In this document: one piece after another, positions 1,205 to 38,615 of the stretch | Layout: the number at the start of each line of letters is the position of its first letter | Position numbering within the stretch: the stretch's first letter is position 1 | Assembly: GCA_964604135.1 (NCBI GenBank) | Contig: CAZRXU010000003.1 | Span: 1-62,837, forward strand | Direction of reading: 5' to 3' | Source of the DNA: an uncultured bacterium | Lineage (GTDB): Bacteria > Fermentibacterota > Fermentibacteria > Fermentibacterales > JCC-6 | DNA length: 62,837 nucleotides | The notes under the pieces: model-generated | The model's input: the letters and a program-made list of their open reading frames with translations, nothing else | What the model was told of the DNA's origin: nothing | Databases searched by the model: none | Translations under genes and position numbers: made by a program

Positions 1205-1577
1205 GATACATCCTTTCGCAGCTCAGGCAATCGCCTGAATTTGGATTGTACCGTCGGGGAACCTGAAAAGAACCGGGGAAATACCGTTCAGAACCTCGAC
1301 GGATTGAAGCCGGAACCGAGCCTCAGCAGTTTCTGTTCGGCGCTCAAACAGAAAACAAAATAACGGAATACCATCCTTCAGCCGATGTAACCCCACAAAG
1401 CATCACATCGGAAATTATAACATATCAAACCTGTAGGAAAACAGGAGATCACAAAACGGTGATTTACGGTGCGGCTAGTAGGGGCTTTTCATCTACCGCG
1501 GAAAACATATATTATTGTTATGCCATACTGGGTTTCTAAGTGGAGAGTTCCCCCACGCCAGTTTGGAGTTGAGTATC

Positions 1578-3626
1578 ATGACTAGAACTGTGTGTGTCTT
1601 GCTGCTGCTGTGCATGACTTCATACGGAGGTCAATTGACTTACCATGTTGATTTCCAGCATGGGAATTCTGTTGAGTACACTCACATGGGCTATTCCAGA
1701 ATTCAGTTTTCCGGTTGTCAGCCCTACGGTCAGCCGGGTGAACCTCTGCTGCCTTCAAGGGTTGTTGCTCTTGTAATTCCATCCGGAGCAGAAAATGTAA
1801 GTGTTTCAGCTGTTGCTGCAAACAAGAGGATTCTGGGCATATCCGGTGTTATACAGCCAGCTGCAGTTCCCAGACCTTTCAGCGCAATGGCTTCTACTCC
1901 GGAAGTTATCCGCGAGGATCAATCCATCTACTCTTCCAATCGGTTCTGGCCGGAAAACCGGGTTCAGAACCTGCGAACAGGCGATAAATCAGGCTTTACC
2001 ATTGTAAGTTTCCTTGTTTATCCCTACCTGTACAACCCTGTTTCCAGAGAACTTGAGTTTTCAGGATCTGTTGATGTCTCGGTGAGCTGGGACGAAAGAG
2101 CCGCCGAAGCTGTTTCTCCATCTCAGGCCGAGTTTGCTGCTGAACAATTGAAAGGCTGGATAAGTAATCCCAGGGATATTCAGTTCTGTACCCCTCTCTC
2201 CCGTGGCTTCGATTCTGTGGACTATCTTGTAATTACTTCCAGCACATACACTTCAATTTTTGAACCGTTTGTTACCTTTAAGAACGGTCAGGGCATTTCC
2301 ACTGAGCTTGTTGACATCGCCAGTATTCTTTCAGGCACAACCGGTTATGATGATCCTGAAAAGCTTCGCAACTATATAATACAAAGACACAGCACCGACG
2401 GAATCAAGTATGTGCTTCTCGCAGGAGATGAAACCGTTGTTCCGGTCAGGATGATTACTCTCTCCTGTGAAGGCTCCACCGATACTGTACCTGTTGATCA
2501 CTACTACAGCGATCTCAACGGTACTTGGGACGCCAACGGTGATCACAACTACGGTCAGACAAATGACTCTCTTGATCTTTACTCTGATATTTCTGTTGGA
2601 AGAGCTCTCTTCGATTCAGTAGATGAGGCCACACTGTTTGTGGAAAGAACCACAATGTATGAAAGCACTGCACCTGCGGGAGACTGGCAGACAACTGCAA
2701 TGCTCTGCGGAGCACTTCTGTTTGGCGATTACACAGGCGCAACAGTCTGCGACTCCATCGCTGCAAATCTTTCCTCCGGGTGGACCTTGAATAAAGCGTA
2801 TGAAACTCCCCGTTCCACCGACGGCTACACAACCCATATTCAGGTTATCAACGATGGCGCCAACTGGGTGCACTATGCCGGTCATGGAAGTGTACAGGGT
2901 GTATACTGGGGATTACCTCCGCAGGACATGATGAGCAACTCCATAGCCGCAGGGCTTGCAAATGGAAGCAAGGCGGGTATTCATCACAGCATTGCCTGTA
3001 TGCCTGGTGCGTTCCACAACGGAGAATCCTGTGCTGAAGCGTTGTGGCACAACGCAAACGGCGGAGCTGTTTCTGTCATGTTCAACACAAGTTACGGATG
3101 GGGTGACCCACCGAATGTTGGAGTAAGTGAGTGGCTGTGTATCTACCTGACAGAAGAGGTTTTTCAGAATGGAAACAATCTTATAGGCTCGGCGTTTGCA
3201 ACCTCCAAAGACCGCCGTGTACCTTTGTGGAATGGCGGTTACGACACTGAGCTCTACTGTATTCTCGACTGGCACGGATTTCATGACCCAACCCTTAAAC
3301 CCCTCACCAGTGTAACCGGAATTGAAGGGGCAGACCCGGAATCATCCCTTTCGCAGACAGTAACACTTGAAGGACCCTTCCCGAATCCTGTTGTTTCCGG
3401 CAGTTCTGTGTTTTTTGCTGCGGGGTTCGCCGGTTCTTCCGGTGATATTTCCATCTACGATGTTTCTGGAAGACAGGTCTGGAGCAAAGCCATTACAGCT
3501 TCCGGCCAGGTATGCTGGGATACTGGCAACAACTCCGGAGGCTGCAGCATTCAGCCTGGTATTTATTTTGCAAGACTGCAATCCGGTTCCGATTCGGCGA
3601 TAAGAAAGCTGATTATTACCAACTGA
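1578..3626 (+). CDS. Gingipain-like C25 cysteine peptidase with propeptide and C-terminal FlgD/T9SS-CTD-like domain
   Basis: Signal peptide from ATG 1578 (MTRTVCVLLLLC); propeptide QPGEPLLP; YVLLAGDE, DHYYSDL, DISVGR; catalytic His in HYAGHGS and Cys in SIACMPG; C-terminal PFPNP...ISIYDVSGRQV...PGIYFARL...KLII. Confidence 0.85.
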   Translation: MTRTVCVLLLLCMTSYGGQLTYHVDFQHGNSVEYTHMGYSRIQFSGCQPYGQPGEPLLPSRVVALVIPSGAENVSVSAVAANKRILGISGVIQPAAVPRPFSAMASTPEVIREDQSIYSSNRFWPENRVQNLRTGDKSGFTIVSFLVYPYLYNPVSRELEFSGSVDVSVSWDERAAEAVSPSQAEFAAEQLKGWISNPRDIQFCTPLSRGFDSVDYLVITSSTYTSIFEPFVTFKNGQGISTELVDIASILSGTTGYDDPEKLRNYIIQRHSTDGIKYVLLAGDETVVPVRMITLSCEGSTDTVPVDHYYSDLNGTWDANGDHNYGQTNDSLDLYSDISVGRALFDSVDEATLFVERTTMYESTAPAGDWQTTAMLCGALLFGDYTGATVCDSIAANLSSGWTLNKAYETPRSTDGYTTHIQVINDGANWVHYAGHGSVQGVYWGLPPQDMMSNSIAAGLANGSKAGIHHSIACMPGAFHNGESCAEALWHNANGGAVSVMFNTSYGWGDPPNVGVSEWLCIYLTEEVFQNGNNLIGSAFATSKDRRVPLWNGGYDTELYCILDWHGFHDPTLKPLTSVTGIEGADPESSLSQTVTLEGPFPNPVVSGSSVFFAAGFAGSSGDISIYDVSGRQVWSKAITASGQVCWDTGNNSGGCSIQPGIYFARLQSGSDSAIRKLIITN

Positions 3627-3754: not shown

Positions 3755-6700
3755 ATGTCGGTTACTTTCAGTATGGAATACATCATCATGTTCGTGGCAT
3801 TTCTCTGCAATACCCCCGTTGTAACCGAGGTCTGCTCGAACCCTGTTAACGAAACAACAGGAGAGTTTGTTGAACTGTACAACGATTCCACAGATTCTCT
3901 CGATGTTTCCGGGTACTGCATTACCGATGGAGATGCTCTTGACGATTTACTCCCCTGGACCGGAGCGTTTCCCCAGAGCGATGTAATCACAGGAACCACC
4001 ATTGTTCCGCCGGAAGGGTTTGCTGTTCTTCTGGAAGAAGACTACCCGCTTGACCCCTGGCTTGTATTCCCGGCTGGAACACTGATACTCACCACAGGCG
4101 ATCACTCGATCTGTAACGGCCTTGCTGCGGCATCCGACCCTTTAACACTGTATCTTCCGTCTGGAACAGCGCAGGCCGATGCTGTTTCCAGCTTCGGAAC
4201 GCCTTTTAAATCCGATGACTGGCACAACTGCGATGACGACGGCCTCGATTCCATTCCATTCAACCCAGGAGAAGCACAGTCCCTGGGAAGGTACCCCATA
4301 AGCGGTGCCGACTGCGAAGCAAACTGGTACGCTGGGGAGCCCACACCCGGTCTTCCAACTGACACACCTCCAGACACATTTGTAATCACAGTAGATTCGC
4401 TGTTTCTTTCACAAACCGATCCCGCACCGGGCTCAACTGTTCAGCTTACAGCACTGGTTTCCTGCCGGGGCACTGTTTCACCAGATACCGGCCAGGTGAT
4501 TCTGTTTATAGACGCAGACGGAGACTCGATTGCCCAGTGGGAAGAAGTTCTTTTCACCTGCCCTGCCGGAAACCTGAATCCCGGTGAAACAGATACTCTT
4601 CAGGTGCTTTTCTCGGCCCCTGATACCGGCTGGTACCCTGCTGTTTGCTCTGCACCTGGAACTTCCGTCAGAGTACATTTCTCAACTGGAGGTGGCGTAA
4701 ATCCGGTGATTACAGAGGTTATGGCTAACCCACTCAACGAAGATCAGGAAGAGTTCATTGAGGTTTTCTACATGGGGCCTGGAGTTTTCCCCCTTGCCGG
4801 ATGCAGTTTTACAGACGGTGATGCTGTAGATATTGTTGTTGCCCTGGATGGGCCCAGGTATATAGCGGCAGGTCAGACAGCACTTATTATTGACCCGGAG
4901 TATCAGGGCACCCTTGAAATTCCCCCGGGAACGCCCCTGTTCACGCCAGCAAACACAACCCTGGGCAACGGTCTTACAACTGATGACCCGGTTCTTCTGT
5001 ACCTTCCAGGCGATCCGTCGCTGTCACTGCTTCTGTCCACTTCCGGAACTCCCCTTCTTTACGATGACCCTCTGATGTGCGACGATGATGGCCTCGACAG
5101 TATTCCCTTCAACCCAGGAGACGGCTGTTCCATGCAACGTGTTACCTCCGATGGGCCTGACGCTGAATTCAACTGGATCGCCTCACCCCCAGGAGGCACA
5201 CCGGGAGTTTATGAAGAAAACCAGGGCTGGTCAGACCTGAGCACAGACACCATCTGGGTCGACAGTGCTGTTTCAGCAGTGTTCAGCAACTGCGGTTCTC
5301 TTGACGCACAGGGTCTTTGCTCGTTCTTCTTCGACCTCGACGGTGATCTGCAGCCTTCAGCCGGTGAAACAGTTCACCAGTGTACACTAACACTGGCAGC
5401 CGGTGAAAGCGATACTGTAACTGCAGTGGTATCTCTGCCTGACAGTGGTCTTTTTGTTGCTGCAGCCACCATACAAAACTCTGCCGATACTGTTGTGTCA
5501 AACAACACACAGCACTGTTTGTTTCTGCCATACAATCCGGCGTGGCCTGTGATAACCGAAGTTCTGTGCAGCCCTTCCAACCAGGACTGCGATGAATTTG
5601 TAGAACTGTTCTTTCCCGGGCCAGGGCTTGCAGACCTAAGCGTCTTTGTGCTAACAGACAATGATTCTCAAGACAATCTTGTTCCTGAAACCACAGCTTT
5701 CCTCACTCCCGGAGGCTATGCGCTCGTACTCGATCCGGAGTACAACAGTGGAAGTATGCCTTACGATATTCCTCCGGAAACGGTTATCCTCTACCCCGCC
5801 AACACCACTATTGGAGACGGTCTCTCCGGCAACGATCCGGTACTTCTTTTTTATGATACACTGTGCGTATCCACGTACGGAACCCCCGGAAACCCGGCAG
5901 ACAGCATCCCTTACAATCCCGGCACCGACCTAAGCGTGGAAAGAATTCTGCCCAGGCTTCCCGATCTGGAAAACAACTGGTTCACTTCGCAGTGGGGTCC
6001 AACCCCGGGAGCGCCTCCGGAAGCTGTTACTGAAGGTGTTGATTACGCAGTTGTCTCTACATCAGTCAATCCTCCCATGGGCGAGGAAACCACACAGGCA
6101 ACAATTGAAGTAGATATTACAAGTACCGGTACAGATACTGTTTCACAGGGCAGCCTCACGGTCAGAATATCCATCGATGACGATGAAATCTGCAGTTTTT
6201 CTCCACCTCCTCCTGCCATGGGAGACACGCTTGCACTGCACACCGTCTGGCAGGGAACGGCTGAGGAATCGGTGGTAACAGGCAACCTGCAGTGTGCTTT
6301 GGATGTAAACCAGTCTAACAACACATCGCTTACAGTCTGGAATCCCCCGGCAACTGTATGTGTCAATGAAATTTTCTACAGTGAAACCGAGTGGCTTGAA
6401 CTGTTCAACAGTACACAAAATGTTGTTTCTCTCACTGGGTTCACCATCTCCGACCCAGCCACATCTTCACCTCTTCCCGATGAACAGCTTGCTCCCGGGA
6501 AGTACATTGTTCTTACAGCAGACCAGGAAGAGTTTCAGAATCGCTGGGGCAGCGTTACCTGCCCGGTCTTTGAACTTGACCAATGGCCCACACTCAACAA
6601 TTCAGGAGACACACTAACACTTATAGATGGTTCTCAAGTGGTTGATATGGTTCCCTACACCAGCCAGTGGGGAGGTAACTCCGGTGCAAGCCTTGAAAGA

Positions 6701-7090
6701 CGCAGCTGCAGTGTATACGGATTTATCGAGAACAACTGGGGCACATCAATCTGCAGTGGAACTCCAGGGGCTGAAAACAGTATTGGCTCCGTTTCATCCG
6801 GTGAGTTTCTAACACTGATACCAACAGTTTTCAACCCGCCTGACACTCCTCTGCGAATTGAGGTGAATCTGCCCATGCAGGCATGCAATGTTACTGTGAA
6901 AGTCTTTGATGTACGGGGAATGCAGATCGAGAAACTGTATTCCGCCATCTCTCCAGGTGAACTACTTGTTCTGGAATGGTCCGGAAACAGTTTTCCAGTT
7001 GGCAGATACATTGTCTTTGCTGAAGCGGTTTGCGCTGGTGAAAGAATCAGCGACGCACAGGTTGTGGTGCTTGCAAGGCAACTTAACTGA
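3755..7090 (+). CDS. Large secreted protein with ~4 lamin-tail (LTD) domains, CARDB/Ig-like segments and a C-terminal FlgD-like domain
   Basis: Repeated ITEV..NP...EF[VI]ELY / CVNEIFY...EWLELFN and [TI]DGD LTD motifs; repeats DDDGLDSIPFNPG (x2) and ADSIPYNPG; SLER, W....TPG..N; C-terminal VKVFDVRG..I..L...W.G...GRYIV. Confidence 0.7.
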   Translation: MSVTFSMEYIIMFVAFLCNTPVVTEVCSNPVNETTGEFVELYNDSTDSLDVSGYCITDGDALDDLLPWTGAFPQSDVITGTTIVPPEGFAVLLEEDYPLDPWLVFPAGTLILTTGDHSICNGLAAASDPLTLYLPSGTAQADAVSSFGTPFKSDDWHNCDDDGLDSIPFNPGEAQSLGRYPISGADCEANWYAGEPTPGLPTDTPPDTFVITVDSLFLSQTDPAPGSTVQLTALVSCRGTVSPDTGQVILFIDADGDSIAQWEEVLFTCPAGNLNPGETDTLQVLFSAPDTGWYPAVCSAPGTSVRVHFSTGGGVNPVITEVMANPLNEDQEEFIEVFYMGPGVFPLAGCSFTDGDAVDIVVALDGPRYIAAGQTALIIDPEYQGTLEIPPGTPLFTPANTTLGNGLTTDDPVLLYLPGDPSLSLLLSTSGTPLLYDDPLMCDDDGLDSIPFNPGDGCSMQRVTSDGPDAEFNWIASPPGGTPGVYEENQGWSDLSTDTIWVDSAVSAVFSNCGSLDAQGLCSFFFDLDGDLQPSAGETVHQCTLTLAAGESDTVTAVVSLPDSGLFVAAATIQNSADTVVSNNTQHCLFLPYNPAWPVITEVLCSPSNQDCDEFVELFFPGPGLADLSVFVLTDNDSQDNLVPETTAFLTPGGYALVLDPEYNSGSMPYDIPPETVILYPANTTIGDGLSGNDPVLLFYDTLCVSTYGTPGNPADSIPYNPGTDLSVERILPRLPDLENNWFTSQWGPTPGAPPEAVTEGVDYAVVSTSVNPPMGEETTQATIEVDITSTGTDTVSQGSLTVRISIDDDEICSFSPPPPAMGDTLALHTVWQGTAEESVVTGNLQCALDVNQSNNTSLTVWNPPATVCVNEIFYSETEWLELFNSTQNVVSLTGFTISDPATSSPLPDEQLAPGKYIVLTADQEEFQNRWGSVTCPVFELDQWPTLNNSGDTLTLIDGSQVVDMVPYTSQWGGNSGASLERRSCSVYGFIENNWGTSICSGTPGAENSIGSVSSGEFLTLIPTVFNPPDTPLRIEVNLPMQACNVTVKVFDVRGMQIEKLYSAISPGELLVLEWSGNSFPVGRYIVFAEAVCAGERISDAQVVVLARQLN

Positions 7091-25923: not shown

Positions 25924-26004
25924 TTCTCAGCACCTCTCGGGTATTGCCCCTTGAACAGCATTTTGCTTATTTTCCACCCTCAATTCAACAGAGGGGATCC
26001 TTTA

Positions 26005-27852
26005 ATGTTAACCTGGTTCAGAAACAATGCAAAGATATTCCTTATCGCCGTCGTTGTCATCTTCGTTGGCATGATTTTTTTCCAGTGGGGGCTGGGAGGT
26101 GTCCAGAACATTGAAGTTGACAAGCTTGTTGTTGGTACTGTAAACGGAACAGGGCTTCAACCCGCATCATACGACGCTGTCCGCGATGAAGTTTACAACA
26201 ACATGAAAAGTCAGATGCAGCAGATGGGAGACCCTGATCCGGAAAACCACCTTGCACTGATGTTCAACGACATAAACAACTCTGCCTTTGATATTCTGGT
26301 TGACAGAACGCTTCAGAATGAATACCTGAAGCAGCTGGGGTGGGAACCGGTAAAGCCTTCAATTGCACAGGCTCTTCTTAAAACCCAACTCCAGATATTT
26401 GGTATTGAAGATCCCGATGGTTACATGAAAGAATACGAAAATGACCCCAATTACAGATCAACCCTGTACCAGTTGATTGCCCAGGCAGACAGGGCCATGT
26501 TTGGAGCCGCAGTTTCCCTGGAAAACATAATATCGGCAAACGAGGTCGAGTTTCTCCTGCAGGATGCTATGACATCGGTTTCTGCAAGATACATCCCGTT
26601 CAACTCTTCTCCTGAGATTCCATCACAAGATGAGCTTGAAGAGTTCTACAATGCAAACACTGATCTCTTTGTGTCATCTCCCGGAGCAACGATAAGATAC
26701 GCCACATTCTCTATTCAACCAACGCAGGAAGATATAGAAGCAACCCTTGCCATGGTCGATTCTCTTGCCCTAAGCGGTACAGGAATGCCAGATACTTTCT
26801 CGGTCACCAGAGCCCAGCTTGCCGGGTTCTCGGGCTGGAATATTGATCTCTCCACCGGTGACCTGTCGGAACCTTTTCTTGCGGCTTCCATGAATCAGAC
26901 TTCAATGATGGCCGGGCATTCCGTGGAACTGCTCTCTGTGAACAGTACAGTTGAAGACACCACAGAAGGAAGTGATACTCTTACACTTGTTCACTGGGAA
27001 ATACCTCTGTTCCCCGGCTACAGAACTGTGAGAGAAGCTTTCTGGGATCTTGAGGAAAACGCCGAATCAATTCTTGTTACAGAAAGCCCAGTCTACGATC
27101 AGCAGTCTCTGGTCGACTACGGCGAAATTGCAATAAGCATAGAGACTACACCGTCGGCTACTGTTCCCCAGGCCCTGATCTCTTTTGCCACTGATTCCAT
27201 CTGGACAGACACTATTGGACCTGTATTCTATGTACCCAGTCTTACCACGGGATACCCCGCCCTCATGGTAGCAAGAAAGCTTGAAGAAATTCAAGGAGGG
27301 CAGTTAAGCCTTCAAGAAGCTCTGGACAGCAATGCAATACTGCTTGAGCTCTACACACAGAGGCAGCAGGATGAATCCTTTGCCATGGCTTCCAGTGCTC
27401 TGTCCGGCATTGAAAGCAGCGGGCTAAGCCTTGATGAATGGGCTGCAGCAGAATCTCTTGAGATTTATGACACGCAGCAGTTCAACCCGGTATCGGTAAG
27501 GCAGTGGGCCGGGTCTGAACAGTCTGCATACCGGGGTCTTCTCGGATGCAAAGACTTCGCTGATGTCTCTCTTCTTGCAGACGAATTCACTGTTCAAGGT
27601 CCGTTCAGCAACAATGGAGTAACCTATCTTGCAGAAATCATCAGCCGCACTGACGCGCAGATTCCTGAAAACAGATCACAGCTTGCAGGTTTCTATCTCT
27701 CGGTTCAAAACAGCCATAACCAGGTTTTCTTCGGCAGACTGATGGCATCCCTGCGTAGCAACGCTGACATACAGGATCAGAGAGGCCAGTACTACAACAC
27801 CATGGACTCTCTCAGAGCAGACTACGCTGCCACCCACGAAGCCCAGCAGTAA
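26005..27852 (+). CDS. SurA N-terminal domain / PpiD-like periplasmic chaperone
   Basis: MLTWFRNNAKIFLIAVVVIFVGMIFFQWG N-terminal anchor typical of PpiD, VGTVNG, EEFYNANTDLF...IRYA; AGAGGGG RBS. Confidence 0.7.
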   Translation: MLTWFRNNAKIFLIAVVVIFVGMIFFQWGLGGVQNIEVDKLVVGTVNGTGLQPASYDAVRDEVYNNMKSQMQQMGDPDPENHLALMFNDINNSAFDILVDRTLQNEYLKQLGWEPVKPSIAQALLKTQLQIFGIEDPDGYMKEYENDPNYRSTLYQLIAQADRAMFGAAVSLENIISANEVEFLLQDAMTSVSARYIPFNSSPEIPSQDELEEFYNANTDLFVSSPGATIRYATFSIQPTQEDIEATLAMVDSLALSGTGMPDTFSVTRAQLAGFSGWNIDLSTGDLSEPFLAASMNQTSMMAGHSVELLSVNSTVEDTTEGSDTLTLVHWEIPLFPGYRTVREAFWDLEENAESILVTESPVYDQQSLVDYGEIAISIETTPSATVPQALISFATDSIWTDTIGPVFYVPSLTTGYPALMVARKLEEIQGGQLSLQEALDSNAILLELYTQRQQDESFAMASSALSGIESSGLSLDEWAAAESLEIYDTQQFNPVSVRQWAGSEQSAYRGLLGCKDFADVSLLADEFTVQGPFSNNGVTYLAEIISRTDAQIPENRSQLAGFYLSVQNSHNQVFFGRLMASLRSNADIQDQRGQYYNTMDSLRADYAATHEAQQ

Positions 27853-28860: not shown

Positions 28861-29645
28861 GATGAGCCGCCGGGAAAAACAATCCATCCGCTGTCTGGTG
28901 AACTTCGCTTTACTTCAATAGGCGTGTTGTACACTCTGGAAAGAAGATCTCCGGAACTGAATACAGCTTCTGGCTCCCCAAAGGCGAGAGACCTGCCTGC
29001 CGAAAGAAGCAGAACTCTGTTAAATGCGTTGCCGGACATCTCTATTCTGTGTGTGGTGGCCAGTATGATGATTCCAGTTGCCGCCAGATCAGAAAGAAGC
29101 TTCCACAACTGTGCGGCATGGCCGTAATCCAGTGACGAACCAGGCTCGTCAAGAAGAATAACATCAGTTTTCTGGGAAAGAACAGCAGCAAGATTCACCA
29201 GACGGCTCTCGCCGCCGGACATCTCATCTGTAAACTTCTGCGACAGATGACCTGCTCCAACCATCTCCAGAGCCTCCTGTGCTATTTCAATATCTTTCAC
29301 GGAATCATTCGACCATGCAGTTCTGTGTGGATACCTTCCCAGCAGAACGGTTTCAATGGCAGTAAGCCCTGTCGGAACAGGCGGGGACTGGGGAAGGTAG
29401 GCAATTCTCCGGGCTCTTTCGGTTCTTTTCATAGAGTGAATATCAACAGTGTCCAGAGCAACCAGACCTGAACTGTGAATTCCGGGAAAGCACAAAATAC
29501 CTTTCAGAAGCGTGCTTTTCCCGCTGCCGTTGGGTCCAATTACTGCGGTTACGCTTCCCTCTGCAATTTCCATAAATACACCGGAAACTGCGGTGGAATC
29601 TGCACTGTAGCCCACACTCAGATTCTTTACTGTCAGTTCAGGCAC
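28857..29645 (-). CDS. BtuD/FecE-family ABC transporter ATPase
   Basis: Walker A GPNGSGKST, RARRIAYLPQ, signature MSGGE, Walker B ILLDEP, H-loop ATH. Confidence 0.9.
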   Translation of the reverse strand: MPELTVKNLSVGYSADSTAVSGVFMEIAEGSVTAVIGPNGSGKSTLLKGILCFPGIHSSGLVALDTVDIHSMKRTERARRIAYLPQSPPVPTGLTAIETVLLGRYPHRTAWSNDSVKDIEIAQEALEMVGAGHLSQKFTDEMSGGESRLVNLAAVLSQKTDVILLDEPGSSLDYGHAAQLWKLLSDLAATGIIILATTHRIEMSGNAFNRVLLLSAGRSLAFGEPEAVFSSGDLLSRVYNTPIEVKRSSPDSGWIVFPGGSS

Positions 29646-30478
29646 TGTGCTATTCCAACAATGAGCTCGTGCAGTCGAGCCCCTGGAACAAGTACATAAT
29701 CACCTGTAAGAACACGAACGTTGGTGTCTTCAAGCCCGCTTTCTCTCCAGAGATCAAGGTTCGTTTCTCCGGTATGGTAGGGGTCCATAATTACAATGCG
29801 GTCGGGGGCCAGAGACAGTATGCCCTCTACGGATACCGCGGGATAACTGCCAGCTTCCGGAGCTGCTGTTACACAGCCCATACCGCTTATGATATCGGCG
29901 AAAAAGGTTCCCTGTCCCGCTACTGTTGCTGAACCGTCTGCATCAAGGAATACAACAATCATTACCCGAAGAGAATCCTGTGCCAGAATACTGTAAAGAG
30001 AATCAAGCGTTGTTTCTATCTCTTCTCTGAAACCGCCGAAGTCTGCCTCGGGATACAGGTTTTCAATGGTGTCACAGGAGCTGTACACATCAGCAAGTCT
30101 GTCGAATGAATACTGATAATAAGGAATACCAAGGCGCCCTGAAAGATCCTTCAGAGACTGATTGGTTCCAATAACATGAATCGAGGTTGCCCCCAGTGCT
30201 GTTATCATCTCCATTGAAGGCGTAAGGAAATCTCCCACCACAGCAAGATCCTGCACTTCCGGGGGCCATGTGGAAAACCGGTCTACTCCGGCAACTCTGT
30301 TCCATGCTCCCGACACAAAAAACATTTCAGTAAGTGACGGCCCGAACACAACTGCAGCTGTATCCTGGCTGGTGAGTTCTTCCTGAGATGTGTTTTGCTC
30401 GCTTTGTTCACTGCAGCCACTCAGTAACATCAAAATCGCGGAAACCGTCGCGAAGTGCTTTAATAGATGCCTTTTCAA
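29633..30478 (-). CDS. BtuF-like helical-backbone substrate-binding lipoprotein (cobalamin/iron complex)
   Basis: TTG 30478 gives MKRHLLKHFATVSAILMLLSGC (lipobox); PSLTEMFF..GA..RVAGVD, PSME.I.AL, TF..DII..MG, PAVSVEGIL.LAPD, PGARL. Confidence 0.8.
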   Translation of the reverse strand: MKRHLLKHFATVSAILMLLSGCSEQSEQNTSQEELTSQDTAAVVFGPSLTEMFFVSGAWNRVAGVDRFSTWPPEVQDLAVVGDFLTPSMEMITALGATSIHVIGTNQSLKDLSGRLGIPYYQYSFDRLADVYSSCDTIENLYPEADFGGFREEIETTLDSLYSILAQDSLRVMIVVFLDADGSATVAGQGTFFADIISGMGCVTAAPEAGSYPAVSVEGILSLAPDRIVIMDPYHTGETNLDLWRESGLEDTNVRVLTGDYVLVPGARLHELIVGIAQCLN

Positions 30479-31388
30479 TCTGTCTTGTCCTTTCCACAGA
30501 TAGCCCAAGAACTTCTGCAATCTCTGCCAGCCTATGTGTGTCGCCGTCGAGCAACCCGTAGCGCATTACAATAATGAACTTTGCCCTGCTGTCCAGTTTG
30601 CCGAGTGCATCTTCCACCATTTCGTTGAGTGGAATTGCTCCCGGATCCGGAACATCAGCAGCCAGCTGTTCTTCCAGAACAAGCCCTTTTTCTCCCACAG
30701 GAGTGTGTATGGAATCAACCACTTCAGAAAGACTTAGCAGAATAGACCAGTCCATCTGCCCGCCGGTCTCCGTCTCTATTTCGTGTGGTGCCGGGTATCT
30801 CCCTTCCGCAGCGGCAAAATCATCAATTATCTCTCTGAGGTATCTGCCCCTTCTAATAACATTGGCAGGTACCCGTACCAGCCTGTGCTGCCTCTCCAGC
30901 GCCAGAAGCACCTTCTTTCTGATACGGATAAGTGCATAGCTCAGGAACCCCTTGCTTCCGGAAAAGTCAAATCTTCTTACCGCGTCTAGAAGACCTACGC
31001 ATCCCTCCTGAACAAAATCCATTTCCTCCAGAGCGCCGGGGCTTCCTCTTGTGTACCGTCTGACGACGATAAGCACAAGACGAAGATTCCCCTCCACAAG
31101 CTCGGACTCGGCATCAAGAAGGGCATTGATGTTTTTGTTGGCTTCCTCTGTCAATACCGGATCTGTGATATTTTTCAGTTTCTGCCACAGTTTTTTCTGC
31201 ACCTGCGTCCAGTCTACCCTGCCTGTGTATTCCTTTTCCATATCCAGAAGTTTCAAAAGCTTCAGTCTGGTTCTTTTGATTGTTTCCGCCAGCTGCGATC
31301 TTCTTTCCCGCGTTGATACATCGGTTGTATCCACCACAGAACTGAATCTGTTTCTGGTGTCAAAAGCGACCTGTTTCTTACCGTTCAT
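30408..31388 (-). CDS. Atypical sigma70-family (RpoD/RpoS-like) sigma factor
   Basis: Region 2 LVEGNLRLV...DFVQEG.VGL..AV.RFD, RLVRVP, region 3 SIHTPVG, region 4 MRYGLLDG...LAEIAEVLGLSVERTRQIE; directly after dnaG. Confidence 0.85.
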   Translation of the reverse strand: MNGKKQVAFDTRNRFSSVVDTTDVSTRERRSQLAETIKRTRLKLLKLLDMEKEYTGRVDWTQVQKKLWQKLKNITDPVLTEEANKNINALLDAESELVEGNLRLVLIVVRRYTRGSPGALEEMDFVQEGCVGLLDAVRRFDFSGSKGFLSYALIRIRKKVLLALERQHRLVRVPANVIRRGRYLREIIDDFAAAEGRYPAPHEIETETGGQMDWSILLSLSEVVDSIHTPVGEKGLVLEEQLAADVPDPGAIPLNEMVEDALGKLDSRAKFIIVMRYGLLDGDTHRLAEIAEVLGLSVERTRQIEKASIKALRDGFRDFDVTEWLQ

Positions 31389-33090
31389 CTTCCGCTCTCA
31401 TGTCCACAAATTCCTCTAGAGCTATTGCCTTGCGCTCTGGATCCGAACTTGCAAGATCTTCCTGTAACCCCCTAAGCCTGGGGAGCTCTCTTCTTTTCCT
31501 TGTTATATCCCTCTTCAATTTCTGAACCTCCGGCAGTGGGACATTTTCCAGAACCCCTACGATATCTGCACAGTCGGCAGATAAATCCTCGGAAAGTTCA
31601 CCGATAACCACAGAAGTAAAACCAGTGCTGATCTGCTCTTTGAATGCGTCAAGAAGCCTGACAGCCCGATCTGTTGTTAAGTCACCAGCTCTCAGGAATT
31701 CTATAAAGTCACTGTTGTAAACCCCTCCTGCTGTGGCTACCTTCAGTATTACGGCATCTCCGCTTCCGAGACTATCTGTGCTCCGGCTGATATACCTGGT
31801 GCGATCTTCGGAACTCCTGATTTCATCACCCTTCTTTGCAAGGGCATCCCTGGAATAGCCGGTAAATTCTTCAACTTTCTTCTGAAGATCTTCTTCCACC
31901 AGTGGATTGGAAGATGAAACCGCCACCTCAAGAAGTCGTTCTGCCAGCCTCGTTCTGTTCGGCCCTTCCGGCAGTTTTCCATCGATAAGAGACACGCAAA
32001 ATGAAACAGGGTCATACGCAAAATTTAGAAGCTCCTCGAAAGCGTTCCTACCCCGGTTCTTCACAAAATCATCGGGATCCATTCCATCAGGCAGCCTGAT
32101 CACCAGAGGGTATGCTCCCTGAGCCAGCAGCTTTTCCGCTGCCTTTACGGCAGCTTTTCTGCCGGCTGAATCACCATCGTAGCAGATGTACTGTTTTTCC
32201 GCCATACCCATGAGATTTTTTGCCTGCTTTTCCGTAAGGGCGGTTCCACTGGTTGCAACAGTCTCAGAGTATCCTGCAGAGACAAGCCTTGCGTGGTCAA
32301 AATAACCCTCGACCAGAATAGCAATCCCCGATTGTCTTGCCTTCTTCTGTGCACTGCTGTACCCGTACAGAAAAGAACCCTTCCTGTAGATAACAGTTTC
32401 TGGACCATTCAGGTACTTTGGAACAGCATCTCCAAAACCCCTTGCCCCAAATGAAACAACTCTTCCCCTCCTGTCGTGAATGGGAAAGGTGAGTCGCTCT
32501 CTGAAACGATCGTATGGCTCTCCCCTGTCTGTAATAACAAGACCGGCATCACTCATAACTGAAACGGAATAACTAAGACTCCGAAGGTGTTTCAGAAGGG
32601 CGTTTCCCCCTGGTGCATACCCTATTCCTATTCCGGTTTCCTCCGGGTCTATGTCTCTTTTTTTAAGATAGTCTCTTGCCTTGCTTCCAGCAGGCCCGTT
32701 AAAGCACTTCCTGAAGAACTTCTGGGCATCATCAACAACATCAAACAGCCCCTTTGACAGCCCGGCGGATAACCTGCCGCCTCCTGAACCTTTCCTCAGG
32801 GTAATACCGGAGGCCTCTGCCAGTTCCTCCAGAACTTCCGGGAACTCCAGATTTTTTCGGGCCATAAGAAAATTGAACACATCTCCGCCAGCACCGCATC
32901 CAAAACACTTATAGGTTCCAGTCGCCGGAAAAACAATAAAACTGGGGGTTTTTTCTTTATGAAAAGGACACAACCCTTTCCATGTGTTACCTGACCTTTT
33001 TAACTCTACATACTGCTGAATAACAGACACTATATCTGTAGAACCCTTAACCAGCTCTACCTCATCGCTGTTGTACGCCACAGAATTCAC
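31378..33090 (-). CDS. dnaG: DNA primase
   Basis: CHC2 finger CPFHKEKTPSF...CFGCG, DRFRERLTFPI, PKYLNGPET, Toprim LVEGYFD and CYDGDSAG, DPDDFV. Confidence 0.95.
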   Translation of the reverse strand: MNSVAYNSDEVELVKGSTDIVSVIQQYVELKRSGNTWKGLCPFHKEKTPSFIVFPATGTYKCFGCGAGGDVFNFLMARKNLEFPEVLEELAEASGITLRKGSGGGRLSAGLSKGLFDVVDDAQKFFRKCFNGPAGSKARDYLKKRDIDPEETGIGIGYAPGGNALLKHLRSLSYSVSVMSDAGLVITDRGEPYDRFRERLTFPIHDRRGRVVSFGARGFGDAVPKYLNGPETVIYRKGSFLYGYSSAQKKARQSGIAILVEGYFDHARLVSAGYSETVATSGTALTEKQAKNLMGMAEKQYICYDGDSAGRKAAVKAAEKLLAQGAYPLVIRLPDGMDPDDFVKNRGRNAFEELLNFAYDPVSFCVSLIDGKLPEGPNRTRLAERLLEVAVSSSNPLVEEDLQKKVEEFTGYSRDALAKKGDEIRSSEDRTRYISRSTDSLGSGDAVILKVATAGGVYNSDFIEFLRAGDLTTDRAVRLLDAFKEQISTGFTSVVIGELSEDLSADCADIVGVLENVPLPEVQKLKRDITRKRRELPRLRGLQEDLASSDPERKAIALEEFVDMRAEDER

Positions 33091-35420
33091 CCCCTGAGCA
33101 GTACTATAGATGCCCCGGCTCCACCCTCTTCAGGCGAAGCAATTGTCACGCTCTCAAGCCTTCTGTCATGTCTGAGCCAATGGGTTATTCCCTCCATCAG
33201 CCGACCCTTCCCGTGTACAACTCTGATTCTTTTCAGACCAACTGCAACACAATTATCCAGCTTTATATCAAGTTCGGCAATGGCTTCGTCAACTGTCATT
33301 CCAAGAAGATCAGCTTCCGGGCTTTCCTGTATTGTCTGATACTCCGAAGACCCTTTCCTTTCCTCCTGAGGAATGTCAATTTTAATGAGACCATTCAATT
33401 TCTTTTTTACAAGAACAGAACCAATTCTAACCATTGCTGTAGAGCGACCCGCCTTTTCCACAATGCCGGGAACGGACCACCCTTCAATCATTACACTGTC
33501 GCCTGTATGAATATCTGAAGCAATGCCTTCCAGCTCTGCATTGCTTCCAGCAGATCTTTCACTTGCAGCTTCCTCAGTTGCCAGCTCACTGAGCATTTTT
33601 CTTGCCTTCCGCCTGTCTGCCGGTGAAGGAGAGTTGGCAATGGAAACCATCAGGGAATCCGCTCTGGACTGGATGCTCTTCAGTGTCCGGGTTTTCTCTT
33701 CGTCTACTGCTGCTATTTTCTCCACCAGACTGGCTCTTGTCTCCCGGAGCTGTTTTTCCAGGTGTTTTCTGCTCTTTCTGGCGTGTGTTCTGTCCTCGGA
33801 AAGATTCTTTATTTCTGCCAGACGCTTTTCCTCCAGTTCCCTAAGGCTGGTAACAAGACTGTCAAGACTGAAGGAATCACCTGCGAGACTGGATGCCTTC
33901 TCCAGCATTCTTTCTGGAAAACCAGCCATAGCAGCAGCTTCAAGGGTACAAGACGCTCCCGGAATATCCGGTACAAACTTGAAACCAGGAGTGAGAGACT
34001 CTGGATTGAAAGACATTGATGCGTTGTAAAATCCCGGTTTTTCCCCGGCAAGCAGTTTTAACTGCCCCATGTGCGTACTTACCAGGCACCTGACACCTGA
34101 ATCAGCCAGTTCTTCAAGAAAAACAACAGCAAGTGCGGCACCTGTAACCGGATCTGTTCCAGCTGCCGGTTCGTCAATAACCGCCAGTGTTTCGGAATCA
34201 CCAGACACAAGAATATTTTTCTGTTCTGACAGCCGCGCAGAGTATGTGCTAAGATGCATGTCTATAGACTGATTGTCTCCCATTGAAACCATTACTCTGC
34301 GGAAAAACGGCATTGAAGACCCGGAACCTGCGTGAACACCAAGCCCGCATCTGGCACAGATTGAAGCAAGTGACAGAGCTTTGAGAAGAACGCTCTTTCC
34401 ACCGGCATTGGGCCCGCTGATAATAAGAACACGCCAGTCTTCAGTTAGCCTGACTCTGCTCTTTACCACCGAATCCGGGGACAAGAGCGGGTGTGCCAGG
34501 TTGTGCAGATCCATCTGCCCTTCATGTGGAAACACTGTGCTGAAGAAAGTGTGATACCTGGCTCTGGCAAACACTGCATCGAGCCCGCTGAGTATGGAAA
34601 TACCCCTCTTTATCTCTTCAAGTCTTTCCCGCACTGCCAGTGTTGCCTCGCGAAGTATTCTTCTCCGCTCCTGCTGGAGATCAAAAACAGCTTCCTGCAA
34701 CTCATTCCCCGCCTCAACCAGCTCTGCCGGTTCTATAAACAGAGTTGCCCCGCTTTCAGATCTGTCGTGAATCAGCCCCTTAACAAGTCCTCTTTTCCCA
34801 GAGAAAACTGGAAGAACATACCTTCCGGACCTCATTGTTGGCGGGGAATCCCGCAGAATTCCCTTCCCGGCCAGCCGCCCTGAGATTTTTGAAAGTTTTG
34901 ATGCGAGTGATGCTCGAAGACTCTGAATTTTCCGGGAAAGCTTCTTAAGTTGCGGAGATGCGTCTGCAGCCAGTTCCCCCTCTGAAGTGGTAATACGCAG
35001 CAGTTGCCTTGAAAGACCATCCAGAATTGGAATACCGCTGATCACAGAGTCAAGAATTCCCGATACGGTGCTGGAAACACTGTTTACTCTGTCTGAAAAC
35101 ACTTTCATGTCACAAAGCATTCCACCTGTTGACCTAAGATGGACAGGTTCAATAGCAACAACTCCGGTATCAAGCTCACTTACCGCATCTATAATACCCT
35201 GTAAGTTTGAAACAGGTGGTTCAACACCTGCGCTTAGAAGCTCTGCAGCGTGCAGGGTCTCATTCATAAGAACCCCGGCATCGGATCTGTTTTGCGAAGG
35301 AAGAAGCTGTGAAACAAGAATTCTTCCGGATCGACTGCCGGCATAATTCTGAACAACCTCCAGAATTCTGAAAAACTCAAGCCGGGAAAGATCCTGATTT
35401 TCAGTCACCAGCGCTGACAC
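33087..35420 (-). CDS. mutS2: MutS2 (endonuclease / collided-ribosome rescue factor) with C-terminal Smr domain
   Basis: RSGRYVLPV, HDRSESGATLFIEP, ISGPNAGGKSV, IDEPAAGTDP, STH, PGASC, Smr DLLGMTVDEA...VVHGKG...GGAGASIV. Confidence 0.92.
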   Translation of the reverse strand: MSALVTENQDLSRLEFFRILEVVQNYAGSRSGRILVSQLLPSQNRSDAGVLMNETLHAAELLSAGVEPPVSNLQGIIDAVSELDTGVVAIEPVHLRSTGGMLCDMKVFSDRVNSVSSTVSGILDSVISGIPILDGLSRQLLRITTSEGELAADASPQLKKLSRKIQSLRASLASKLSKISGRLAGKGILRDSPPTMRSGRYVLPVFSGKRGLVKGLIHDRSESGATLFIEPAELVEAGNELQEAVFDLQQERRRILREATLAVRERLEEIKRGISILSGLDAVFARARYHTFFSTVFPHEGQMDLHNLAHPLLSPDSVVKSRVRLTEDWRVLIISGPNAGGKSVLLKALSLASICARCGLGVHAGSGSSMPFFRRVMVSMGDNQSIDMHLSTYSARLSEQKNILVSGDSETLAVIDEPAAGTDPVTGAALAVVFLEELADSGVRCLVSTHMGQLKLLAGEKPGFYNASMSFNPESLTPGFKFVPDIPGASCTLEAAAMAGFPERMLEKASSLAGDSFSLDSLVTSLRELEEKRLAEIKNLSEDRTHARKSRKHLEKQLRETRASLVEKIAAVDEEKTRTLKSIQSRADSLMVSIANSPSPADRRKARKMLSELATEEAASERSAGSNAELEGIASDIHTGDSVMIEGWSVPGIVEKAGRSTAMVRIGSVLVKKKLNGLIKIDIPQEERKGSSEYQTIQESPEADLLGMTVDEAIAELDIKLDNCVAVGLKRIRVVHGKGRLMEGITHWLRHDRRLESVTIASPEEGGAGASIVLLRG

Positions 35421-35471: not shown

Positions 35472-36557
35472 CTATCTGCGTTTTACCTTGAATGAGTGCA
35501 GTTCTTCCATCTTCTTGAGAAATTCCTTCTCACCGCGTTTAACTTTCGAGGGAACATAAATATCTATCTCGACAATCAGATCACCGCGCCCCCGCCTGTT
35601 AAGCCTGCCCATCCCCTGATGTTTTATCTTAAGCCTCGTACCGGCAGATGTTCCACTGCCAACCTTCACCACCGTTGAGTCACCGTCTGGAAGGGGAATT
35701 GTAAACTCTGCCCCCAGTACAGCCTGAGGATACGAAATTGTCAGAGAGTAAACGAGATCATCTTCTTCCCGCACGAATGAACCGTAGTCGATTTTGTTGA
35801 TAAGCAGCTTCAAGTCCCCTGGAACGCCACCCTGTCCAGGATGATGCCCCTGCCCCCGCAACCTTATGTAGTGGCCCTTTGAAAGACCTGCAGGGAGATC
35901 AACAGCAATGGTAGACTTCTTTTTTTCGTAGCCCTTTCCCCTGCAACTTGAGCAAAGCTTTCTGGGAATGCTTCCGCTGCCTCTGCATGTGGGGCATTTG
36001 CTTACAGTTCGGAAACTGCCCAACAGTGTATTTCTTACAGATGCAACCTGTCCGGAACCTTTGCACTGTCTGCAGGTATCCGACCCTGCTTCAGGGTCTG
36101 CCCCTGTACCGGAACAGCTGCTGCATGAAACATTTCTCTCTACTTCTATTTCCTGCCTGCCGCCAAGAACTGCATCCTGAAGATCCAGATTAACCTTTAC
36201 AACGAGATCTTCGCCTCTGATTGCCCCGGAACGGGAACCGCTAGACGCAAAACCGAAATTTTCCATAAACGCCCGCAGAGCATCATCGAGACCAAACCCG
36301 CTAAAGATGTCTTGCATACCACCCATACCACCGAAAGACCCGGCAGGCTCGGTGGTACCGTAACGATCAAAGGCATCCCTTCTTGAAGGGTCGCTTAGTA
36401 TTTCATACGCCTTTGCAGCCTCTTTAAACCGCTCTTCAGCCTGATGATCACCGGGGTTTCGATCCGGATGATTCTTCATAGCAGCAGCACGGTAGGCCTT
36501 CTTAATTTCTTCCGGGGACGCACCTCTGTTTACGCCCAGTACTTCGTATGGATTCAT
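35472..36557 (-). CDS. dnaJ: Chaperone DnaJ
   Basis: J-domain NPYEVLGV...IKKAYR...HPDRN; G/F region; four CxxCxGxG repeats; C-terminal GDLIVEI. Confidence 0.95.
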
Positions 36558-36617
36558 GGGGCGAAATATAACAACCGCAGAGAGGAAAAAACAAAATGAA
36601 CGCCGAAGAAAACTCTG

Positions 36618-38586: not shown

Positions 38587-38615
38587 ATAGTATCGCATAC
38601 ATCGTGCAGTGTCAA
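38587..38615 (-). promoter_or_regulatory. Sigma70-type promoter upstream of dnaK
   Basis: TTGACA-N17-TACTAT on the minus strand; the -35 box overlaps the mtnA stop codon. Confidence 0.7.

What the first reader, a model, noticed from the sequence alone, without database searches (positions are those of the whole stretch)
30408..31388. Sigma factor in the dnaG-rpoD slot lacks the promoter-melting tryptophans
Seen: the 326-aa sigma overlaps the dnaG stop, as rpoD normally follows dnaG, but has no region 1.1 and a degenerate 1.2. Region 2.3-2.4 reads FLSYALIRIRKKVLLAL (YALIR at 30938-30924). Established: group 1/2 sigmas carry FSTYATWWIRQAITRAI, with the WW dyad and Gln needed for -10 recognition and melting. 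Region 4.2 (VERTRQIE) is kept. Inference: an altered-specificity sigma, an activator-dependent sigma, or a core-sequestering decoy; the housekeeping sigma probably lies elsewhere.
Basis: partly seen in the sequence, partly recalled or inferred. Interest (0 to 1): 0.7.

Follow-up and report, generated by a model that had tools for sequence, protein, structure and literature searches.

The report
RpoD-slot sigma without melting tryptophans
In one branch of the uncultured phylum Fermentibacterota, the sigma factor gene sitting where the housekeeping rpoD normally sits has long replaced the two near-universal promoter-melting tryptophans with the Ile-Arg pair of flagellar-type sigmas, under purifying selection, so these bacteria may start much of their transcription without the tryptophan wedge.

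Summary
ORF 30408-31388(-) encodes a 326-aa sigma-70 protein whose start overlaps the dnaG stop by 11 nt. It reads F-L-S-Y-A-L-I-R-I-R-K where sigma70 has F-S-T-Y-A-T-W-W-I-R-Q.

This is not decay. The change is fixed in 18 species-level genomes (Sabulitectum clade, the "S form"), with dN/dS about 0.1 overall and 0.03-0.06 in region 2.

The main new result is orthology. All 50 Fermentibacterota species genomes found share the order dnaJ-mutS2-dnaG-sigma-binding protein-ABC ATPase-permease. Each holds exactly one phylum-type sigma (motif MD.[VLM]QEGC):
- 27 genomes: a 390-490-aa WW form (L).
- 18 genomes: the 326-aa I-R form (S).
- 5 genomes: a sister F/C/Y-V form (S').
- No genome has two forms.

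So the WW protein is the ortholog in other genera, not a housekeeping copy elsewhere. I-R-x-R is the arrangement described for group 3 sigma28, but the rest of the protein is RpoD-like. S genomes conserve classical TTGnnn-N18-TAnnnT promoters.

Unresolved: I could not list all sigma genes of an S genome, so an unrelated canonical RpoD cannot be excluded. The slot sigma also evolves unusually fast across the whole phylum.

Verdict: a new variant of a known kind. It would be surprising if it proves to be the principal sigma.

The parts
30408..31388 (-). Sigma factor gene, 326 aa (the 'S form' of the Fermentibacterota slot sigma)
   Evidence: ORF. Pfam r2 and r4 hits. Best solved-structure matches are group 1 SigA over residues 93-320. 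44 ortholog clusters at 50-91% identity. dN/dS 0.09-0.14.
31248..31361 (-). Residues 10-47: putative degenerate region 1.2 (two helices); inferred
   Evidence: Conserved pattern in alignment A1. Predicted helices 12-21 and 27-47. Foldseek aligns about 320-350 columns with SigA chains that lack region 1.1. No Pfam r1_2 hit, and the N-termini are not aligned by hhalign.
30879..31112 (-). Region 2 (residues 93-170): core binding 2.1-2.2 with the phylum-specific EEMD.VQEGC motif, and the rebuilt 2.3-2.4
   Evidence: Alignment with E. coli RpoD, RpoS, RpoH and FliA and with 39 Fermentibacterota sigmas. dN/dS 0.03-0.06.
30924..30929 (-). Codons I154-R155, at the position of the W433/W434 dyad
   Evidence: R155 is nearly invariant in the S form. 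The same I-R pair occurs in P. aeruginosa sigma28 as I79/R80 (PMC12784957).
30639..30878 (-). Region 3 (residues 171-250), including 3.0 'RLVRVPANVI' and a group-1-like 3.2 'TPVGE'
   Evidence: phmmer alignments to SigA. hhalign to the L form. No Pfam r3 hit.
30444..30626 (-). Region 4 (residues 255-315) with recognition helix S-V-E-R-T-R-Q-I-E
   Evidence: Pfam r4 at 44.6 bits. E299, R300, R302, Q303, I304 and E305 are invariant.
31378..33090 (-). dnaG (DNA primase); its stop overlaps the sigma start by 11 nt
33087..35420 (-). mutS2 (MutS domain V plus Smr domain), part of the conserved gene block
35472..36557 (-). dnaJ, first gene of the likely dnaJ-mutS2-dnaG-sigma transcription unit
   Evidence: Pfam. 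Synteny.
36565..36594 (-). Conserved promoter-like site TTGTTT-N18-TATATT ending 7 nt before the dnaJ ATG, with no Shine-Dalgarno (probable leaderless start); candidate promoter for the sigma operon
   Evidence: Conserved in all S genomes examined (17 distinct contigs) across 50-90% protein identity. Coordinates.
29633..30520 (-). Periplasmic binding (lipo)protein gene of an ABC transporter; its 5' end overlaps the sigma 3' end
   Evidence: The overlap is conserved in S and S' loci but absent in L loci.

Best explanation
Identity (shown). The 326-aa protein is a working sigma factor and the positional ortholog of the RpoD-like sigma that follows dnaG in every Fermentibacterota genome found.

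History (shown). In the common ancestor of the Sabulitectum clade (S) and a high-GC sister clade (S'), this sigma lost the roughly 150-residue insert between regions 1.2 and 2.1, and it lost the W433/W434 dyad. In S the dyad became [I/V/M/F]-R followed by I-R-[K/R].

Mechanism (inferred).
- It still binds core through region 2.2 (D..QEG).
- It reads a TTG-type -35 through the unchanged E585/R586/R588/Q589 equivalents. The R584 equivalent is lost, which fits variable bases after TTG.
- It captures -11A on the retained Y430 equivalent.
- It nucleates unwinding without a tryptophan wedge. Instead it uses Arg155 and Arg157 as sigma28 uses R80 and R82, with the -12 pair kept closed.
- This should give lower intrinsic melting power and stricter promoter requirements.

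Role (inferred). No genome with this form has the WW form, so it most likely acts as the principal, or the only RpoD-type, sigma of these bacteria. It would read the classical TTGnnn-N17/18-TAnnnT sites conserved upstream of dnaJ, of a SurA-like gene and of dnaK.
For: - Synteny and exclusivity: an exact-motif scan of GTDB species genomes plus tblastn found 27 L, 18 S and 5 S' assemblies. All have dnaJ-mutS2-dnaG-sigma-PBP-ABC-permease, and none has two forms.
- Shared derived motif EEMD.VQEGC (N409 to C) in S and L, against canonical DLIQEGN.
- Neighbour-gene tree: S 100%, S' 100%, S+S' 90% bootstrap, so a single origin.
- Purifying selection, and invariant DNA- and core-contact residues.
- Overall RpoD-likeness: best NCBIfam and PDB matches are group 1, then RpoS, then SigF and FliA; Foldseek's top matches are SigA chains.
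- The I-R-x-R motif equals the sigma28 arrangement, where R80 contacts -12G and R82 is important for transcription. E. coli FliA aligns in the same register.
- Long-form searches never return a protein named Sabulitectum.
- Promoters: S upstream regions are enriched for sigma70-like bipartite sites (z=5.6 against mononucleotide shuffles). Conserved footprints lie at dnaJ and the SurA-like gene, and TTGACA-N17-TACTAT lies before dnaK.
Against: - I could not list all sigma genes of any S genome, so a canonical RpoD elsewhere is not excluded.
- The slot sigma evolves about as fast as DnaG in the whole phylum. The ratio of region 2-4 divergence to DnaG divergence is about 0.9-1.0, against 0.53 for the single E. 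coli/Ktedonobacteria calibration pair. That is atypical for a housekeeping sigma.
- Even the L form scores only 195-240 bits on RpoD models whose cut-offs are 354 or more.
- S' has V, not R, at the W434 position, so the sigma28-like Arg is not general.
- Q437 to K/R would be expected to favour C at -12 (mutant data cited in the preprint), yet the conserved footprints have T there.
- Whole-window counts of TGnTATAAT and of TTGACA-N-TAnnnT do not exceed shuffles.
- The sequence tree does not resolve the deep position of S.
Confidence: 0.55

Rival explanations
1. The dnaG-adjacent sigma of the whole phylum (L, S and S') is a fast-evolving, lineage-specific alternative or primary-like sigma. A separate canonical housekeeping sigma, for example an FCB-type sigmaA, lies elsewhere in every Fermentibacterota genome. 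Loss of the W dyad then only narrows the regulon of a non-essential sigma, as in group 3 and 4 sigmas.
For: The slot sigma diverges as fast as DnaG and MutS2. L and S score far below the curated RpoD cut-offs. The classical TAnnnT promoters with T at -12 in S genomes are what a canonical sigma would read. Alternative sigmas commonly lack melting residues (background cited).
Against: The L form has a weak region 1.2 hit (E=0.012, below Pfam's cut-off), a long insert before 2.1, the WW dyad and Q437, and it sits in the rpoD slot. No intermediate-scoring paralog appears between the L family (356 bits or more) and unrelated RpoDs (258 bits or less). No second sigma lies in the 62.8-kb window or in any fetched locus. 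This rival was not directly testable here.
Confidence: 0.35
2. The protein no longer directs initiation on its own. It is a core-sequestering decoy, or a sigma that needs an activator or remodeller to open DNA.
For: Several region 2.3 residues implicated in melting are lost: W433, W434, and the Y425, R423 and K426 equivalents (roles as summarised).
Against: The DNA-recognition residues of 4.2, the Y430 and R436 equivalents and region 3.0 are invariant or nearly so, and region 2 has the lowest dN/dS; a decoy would not need them. Sigma28 works with the same I-R-x-R arrangement. No partner gene is conserved next to it.
Confidence: 0.07
3. Sequencing or assembly error, or a decaying pseudogene.
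For: None.
Against: Same length and motif in 18 independent assemblies and 44 protein clusters. Intact ORFs, except in one error-prone assembly (MJAN01), where many genes are broken. dN/dS about 0.1.
Confidence: 0.01

Closest known systems
Group 1 primary sigma (RpoD/SigA), especially the short forms without region 1.1 in the FCB superphylum (Bacteroidota sigmaA)
   Same: The gene follows dnaG. The architecture is 1.2-like N-terminus, then regions 2, 3 and 4. Core-binding 2.2, 3.0 (R.VR.P), 3.2 (TP.G) and the 4.2 recognition helix are present. Best HMM, PDB-sequence and Foldseek matches are group 1.
   Different: No W433/W434, Q437, R423, Y425 or K426 equivalents. N409 is replaced by C. The R584 equivalent is lost. 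It scores 98 bits on RpoD_Cterm against a cut-off of 354. No profile detects region 1.2.
Long-form (390-490 aa) Fermentibacterota sigma of Aegiribacteria, Fermentibacter and relatives
   Same: Same genomic slot and gene order. Shared EEMD.VQEGC motif. 35-41% identity over regions 2-4. The two forms are mutually exclusive across genomes, so they are orthologs.
   Different: The long form keeps ST[FY]AVWW[IV]RQ, a weak region 1.2 hit and an insert of about 150 residues. Its gene does not overlap dnaG or the binding-protein gene.
Group 3 sigma28 (FliA/WhiG/SigD)
   Same: The W dyad is replaced by I/Q-R, followed by I-R: P. aeruginosa I79-R80-x-R82, E. coli FliA Y-A-V-Q-R-I-R, and here Y-A-L-I-R-I-R. 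The E420 equivalent is D in both.
   Different: The whole-protein score on FliA_WhiG is 71.6 against 189.6. It has a longer N-terminus and a group-1-like region 3.2. No G-A-[IM]-x-D follows R-I-R. It lies next to dnaG rather than in a flagellar context, and no flagellar or FlgM genes were noticed among the annotated neighbours.
Group 2 primary-like sigmas (RpoS, cyanobacterial SigB-E, actinobacterial HrdA-D/SigB)
   Same: Similar length and no region 1.1. They are the next best HMM and PDB matches.
   Different: Group 2 sigmas keep the WW dyad, as E. coli RpoS does, and they coexist with a group 1 paralog. No such related paralog is present in S genomes.

Membership tests
Group 1 primary sigma (RpoD/SigA) | Curated RpoD family profile score above cut-off | tested here: not met
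   TIGR02393 scores 97.7 bits against 354. The best RpoD-type model, TIGR02997, scores 110 against 384.5.
Group 1 primary sigma (RpoD/SigA) | Region 2.3/2.4 with the conserved aromatic set including W433/W434, and Q437 | tested here: not met
   I154, R155 and K158 occupy these positions; Y430 and F427 are kept. Fixed in all S orthologs.
Group 1 primary sigma (RpoD/SigA) | Regions 1.2, 2, 3 and 4 all present | tested here: inconclusive
   Pfam finds r2 and r4. Regions 3 and 3.2 are seen only in pairwise alignments to SigA. Region 1.2 is suggested by a sequence pattern and predicted helices, but no profile hit exists.
Group 1 primary sigma (RpoD/SigA) | Gene immediately downstream of dnaG (common, not universal) | tested here: met
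   11-nt overlap with dnaG. Conserved in all 50 Fermentibacterota genomes.
Group 1 primary sigma (RpoD/SigA) | The essential sigma that reads most promoters | not testable with these tools
   This needs a full sigma inventory of the genomes, transcription start maps or biochemistry.
Group 2 primary-like sigma | Coexists with a related group 1 paralog in the same genome | tested here: inconclusive
   No second phylum-type sigma in 18 S and 5 S' genomes. Unrelated sigmas could not be enumerated.
Group 2 primary-like sigma | RpoS family profile above cut-off, with the WW dyad kept | tested here: not met
   TIGR02394 scores 96.5 against 378.7. The WW dyad is absent.
Group 3 sigma28 (FliA/WhiG) | FliA_WhiG profile above cut-off | tested here: not met
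   TIGR02479 scores 71.6 against 189.6.
Group 3 sigma28 (FliA/WhiG) | W dyad replaced by x-R, with the following I-R retained | tested here: met
   I154-R155-I156-R157 aligns with E. coli FliA Q-R-I-R and with P. aeruginosa sigma28 I79-R80-x-R82 (PMC12784957).
Group 3 sigma28 (FliA/WhiG) | Flagellar or chemotaxis gene context, or a FlgM partner | tested here: not met
   The neighbours are dnaK, dnaJ, mutS2 and dnaG upstream and an ABC transporter downstream. Only part of the window was annotated.
Fermentibacterota slot sigma (this report's grouping) | Motif MD.[VLM]QEGC in region 2.2, and position between dnaG and the binding-protein gene | tested here: met
MzaA (MZA anti-phage system sigma) | NF041931 profile above cut-off | tested here: not met
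   101 bits against 800, covering only the C-terminal sigma part of the model.

The most novel reading that the evidence does not exclude
The S and S' clades, 23 of the 50 known species-level Fermentibacterota genomes, have no sigma with the tryptophan dyad at all. They run housekeeping transcription, from classical TTGnnn/TAnnnT promoters, with an RpoD ortholog whose wedge is Ile-Arg (S) or Phe/Cys/Tyr-Val (S'). That would be the first natural primary sigma without the W433/W434 dyad. It would show that the dyad, which is retained even in the most reduced endosymbionts, is not indispensable for general promoter opening.
Probability: 0.4. Interest if true: 0.85.

Novelty: new variant of a known kind. 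Interest (0 to 1): 0.66.

Why it matters
The W433/W434 dyad of region 2.3 is treated as a near-universal part of how primary sigmas open the -10 element. The endosymbiont survey read here reports that even extremely reduced genomes keep it.

This finding offers a natural and ancient experiment. The same gene, in the same slot, exists with the dyad in 27 species genomes and without it in 23, and the loss happened once.

If the W-less form is the principal sigma, it gives a direct system to ask three questions:
- What replaces the wedge?
- How does promoter architecture adapt? Conserved classical and leaderless promoters are already visible.
- Does reduced melting power tune global promoter stringency?

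If it is instead a lineage-specific alternative sigma, it still shows an RpoD-type scaffold converging on the sigma28 solution (I-R-x-R). That is useful for understanding and engineering sigma specificity.

Tried and rejected
- Second sigma in the window: tblastn with both forms found none, and there are no tRNA or Rfam hits.
- Extending the window's contig with the look-up of encoding contigs: one end protein is not on record; the other gave only short Logan and ENA contigs.
- Sigma inventories in the Hyd24-12 and Sabulitectum genome papers: no usable supplements.
It still showed that the best non-phylum matches are FCB primary sigmas.
- Sequence-only NJ tree: S is monophyletic, but the deep nodes are unresolved (Fermentibacterota monophyly 15%), so orthology rests on synteny, exclusivity and the shared motif.
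- P0229, a 314-aa 'VQEGC' sigma with N-W: suspected to be a hidden Fermentibacterota paralog. It is an orphan nearest to an Actinomycetota SigB. Rejected.
- P0056-P0083 (284 aa, 'YATDWILQ'): considered as a possible housekeeping sigma of the phylum. There is no link to it.
- k-mer enrichment in upstream regions: only Shine-Dalgarno-like and AT-rich words.
- Whole-window counts of TGnTATAAT and TTGACA-N16-18-TAnnnT: not above shuffles.
- RNA-seq evidence: only four DNA metagenome runs hold the locus.
- Recombination with a FliA gene as the source of the I-R-I-R motif: rejected, because the sequence after the motif (K-K-V-L-L-A-L-E) is unlike FliA (G-A-M-L-D-E-L-R) and close to the L form.
Full report
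WHAT IS THERE

The ORF at 30408-31388 on the minus strand encodes 326 residues. Pfam finds Sigma70_r2 (residues 97-169) and Sigma70_r4 (261-313). The gene upstream is dnaG (TIGR01391 at 371 bits), and the two genes share the 11 nt ATGAACGGTAA.

Further upstream lie mutS2, dnaJ and dnaK. Downstream lie a periplasmic binding protein, an ABC ATPase and a permease. All are on the same strand.

I aligned the protein with E. coli RpoD, RpoS, RpoH and FliA, taken from NC_000913.3. F148-L-S-Y-A-L-I-R-I-R-K-K-V-L-L falls on sigma70 F427-S-T-Y-A-T-W-W-I-R-Q-A-I-T-R, and YALIR is encoded at 30938-30924.

One addition: region 4.2 keeps the E585, R586, R588 and Q589 equivalents but has lost the R584 equivalent (V here; I, A or T in orthologs). 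One caveat: no profile detects region 1.2. It is suggested only by a conserved sequence pattern and by two predicted helices.

NOT AN ERROR, NOT DECAY

A database search returned 44 ortholog clusters of 317-335 residues at 50-91% identity. Those that carry a name are called Candidatus Sabulitectum, phylum Fermentibacterota (formerly Hyd24-12).

In a 30-sequence alignment the motif G-F-x-[STA]-Y-A-[LVI]-[IMFV]-R-I-[RK]-[KR] is fixed, and R155 is nearly invariant. Nei-Gojobori dN/dS between orthologs is 0.09-0.14 for the whole gene and 0.03-0.06 for region 2.

The window's DNA is held by epibiont and hydrothermal-vent metagenomes.

THE KEY RESULT: IT IS THE ORTHOLOG OF A WW-BEARING SIGMA, NOT AN EXTRA COPY

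The next-best database hits are 437-464-aa sigmas from Candidatus Aegiribacteria and Fermentibacteria. They keep ST[FY]AVWW[IV]RQ, and they share with the 326-aa protein the unusual region 2.2 motif EEMD.VQEGC, where the canonical sequence is DLIQEGN.

I scanned one genome per GTDB species for that motif. The scan gave 44 stretches, all from Fermentibacterota, and never two forms in one assembly: 27 assemblies have the long WW form (L) and 16 have the short form (S). A protein-based scan had already found 18 S assemblies.

tblastn shows the same gene order around both forms: dnaJ-mutS2-dnaG-sigma-binding protein-ABC ATPase-permease.

A third form (S') reads Y-A-V-[FCY]-V-I-R-R, is 317-328 aa long and comes from genomes of 62-67% G+C. 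It occupies the same slot in 5 further species genomes, none of which has the L form.

A neighbour-joining tree of the concatenated flanking proteins (1968 columns) gives S 100%, S' 100% and the S+S' split 90% bootstrap support. So the dyad, and the roughly 150-residue insert between 1.2 and 2.1, were lost once. That loss happened in the ancestor of 23 of the 50 known species-level genomes.

A profile search with the L family returned about 57 clusters named Aegiribacteria, Fermentibacteria or Fermentibacterales, and never Sabulitectum. Nothing scored between that family (356 bits or more) and unrelated RpoDs (258 bits or less).

The WW protein is not the housekeeping sigma 'elsewhere' in this genome. 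It is the same gene in other genera.

WHAT KIND OF SIGMA IT RESEMBLES

Overall the protein is RpoD-like.
- The best NCBIfam models are of RpoD/SigA type (110 bits). RpoS follows at 96, SigB/F/G at 78 and FliA/WhiG at 72. All are far below their cut-offs.
- The best solved-structure sequences are group 1 SigA (104 bits), then RpoS (76), SigF (58) and FliA (49).
- An AlphaFold model (pLDDT 69) matches SigA chains over about 320-350 columns.
- Regions 3.0 (R-L-V-R-V-P) and 3.2 (T-P-V-G-E) are of the group 1 type.

The dyad region is a different matter. It has the group 3 arrangement. In the P. aeruginosa sigma28 open complex, W433 and W434 are replaced by I79 and R80. R80 is conserved in group 3 sigmas and contacts -12G, and R82 (the R436 equivalent) matters for transcription (PMC12784957). 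E. coli FliA aligns as Y-A-V-Q-R-I-R in the same register as Y-A-L-I-R-I-R.

The residues after the motif follow the L form rather than FliA, so this is convergence and not a transferred segment.

Loss of the second tryptophan is rare among RpoD-like proteins. Of the 140 nearest representatives in an exhaustive search, 115 have WW and most of the others keep W434. A survey of extremely reduced endosymbionts reports that all of them keep the essential aromatic residues.

HOW IT PROBABLY WORKS

Shown:
- The core-binding residues D..QEG are conserved.
- The Y430 and R436 equivalents are conserved.
- N101 and L104 of region 2.1 are conserved.
- The 4.2 recognition helix is conserved.

Inferred:
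- The -35 element is read as TTG, with relaxed downstream bases because the R584 equivalent is lost.
- -11A is captured on Y151.
- Strand separation is nucleated by R155 and R157 instead of a tryptophan wedge, with the -12 pair left closed as proposed for sigma28.
- The result would be lower intrinsic melting power and stricter promoter requirements.

PROMOTERS IN S GENOMES

Upstream regions of S loci score higher for bipartite sigma70-type sites than mononucleotide shuffles do (z=5.6). Two sites are conserved across S genomes that are only 50-70% identical in protein sequence:
- TTGTTT-N18-TATATT (36594-36565, minus strand) ends 7 nt before the dnaJ ATG and has no Shine-Dalgarno, so it is probably a leaderless start.
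- TTGCCC-N18-TATTTT (25944-25973, plus strand) lies before a SurA-like gene.

dnaK is preceded by TTGACA-N17-TACTAT. L genomes also carry TATATT upstream of dnaJ. So some sigma in S genomes reads classical TAnnnT -10 elements.

The TTG-only conservation of the -35 elements fits the S region 4.2. The T at -12 does not obviously fit a K/R at the Q437 position, given the mutant data summarised.

WHAT REMAINS OPEN

I could not enumerate the sigma genes of any S genome with the tools at hand.

Two facts keep the rival explanation alive, namely a canonical housekeeping sigma elsewhere in all Fermentibacterota:
- The slot sigma's regions 2-4 diverge about as fast as DnaG and MutS2 within the phylum. 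The ratio is 0.9-1.0, against 0.53 for the single E. coli/Ktedonobacteria calibration pair.
- Even the L form scores only 195-240 bits on RpoD models.

S-L pairs are only modestly more diverged than equally distant L-L pairs (0.65 against 0.56-0.58). So there was no dramatic acceleration on the S stem.

VERDICT

The feature is real and ancient, and selection maintains it. It is best described as an RpoD-lineage sigma with a group-3-style melting module, which is a new variant of a known kind.

I put about 0.9 on orthology with the WW form and on a fixed, functional loss of the dyad. I put about 0.4-0.5 on it being the principal sigma of these bacteria. A decoy, an activator-dependent sigma or an artefact are all unlikely.

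Noticed in passing
window 36558-36594 (-): All S-clade genomes conserve TTTTGT..N18..TATATT followed by 7 nt and then the dnaJ ATG, with no Shine-Dalgarno. This looks like a leaderless dnaJ mRNA. S' (L152) instead has GGAGG before dnaJ, and L genomes carry TATATT 55-100 nt upstream.
   Followed up: partly
window 30408-30520: The 5' end of the binding-protein (lipoprotein, LLSGC lipobox) ORF overlaps the 3' end of the sigma gene by up to 113 nt in another frame. The overlap is conserved in S and S' loci and absent in L loci. The true start codon of the binding protein is uncertain.
   Followed up: partly
window 38587-38615 (-): A perfect -35 and a good -10 (TTGACA-N17-TACTAT) lie just upstream of dnaK. 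The listed dnaK ORF probably starts about 29 codons too early, because the HSP70 domain begins at residue 30.
   Followed up: no
window 25944-25973 (+): TTGCCC-N18-TATTTT lies upstream of a SurA/PpiC-like gene (probable ATG at 26005, preceded by AGAGGGG). It is conserved in L009, L011 and L017.
   Followed up: partly
P0056-P0083 (proteins): A family of 284-aa sigmas from ENA metagenomes has regions 1.2 to 4 but reads Y-A-T-D-W-I-L-Q, with W433 replaced by D and R436 by L. This is another RpoD-like lineage with an altered dyad, of unknown origin.
   Followed up: no
window 1515-3626 (+) and 3755-7090 (+): A C25 (gingipain-type) peptidase with a Por_Secre_tail sorting domain, followed by a 1111-aa protein with lamin-tail domains. 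This suggests a type IX secretion cargo pair, in keeping with an FCB-superphylum organism.
   Followed up: no
P0226: A 1692-aa protein matches the sigma profile in 14 separate stretches, the best being region 4. It may be a repeat protein built of sigma region-4-like helix-turn-helix units.
   Followed up: no
L018 (MJAN01000017, Ca. Sabulitectum silens JCC-6): mutS2, dnaG, the sigma, the binding protein and dnaJ all appear in several frames. This looks like an error-prone assembly rather than gene decay.
   Followed up: no
Fermentibacterota loci L102-L144: Across the whole phylum the dnaG-adjacent sigma (regions 2-4) diverges as fast as DnaG and MutS2. That is unusually fast for an RpoD-type sigma.
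   Followed up: partly
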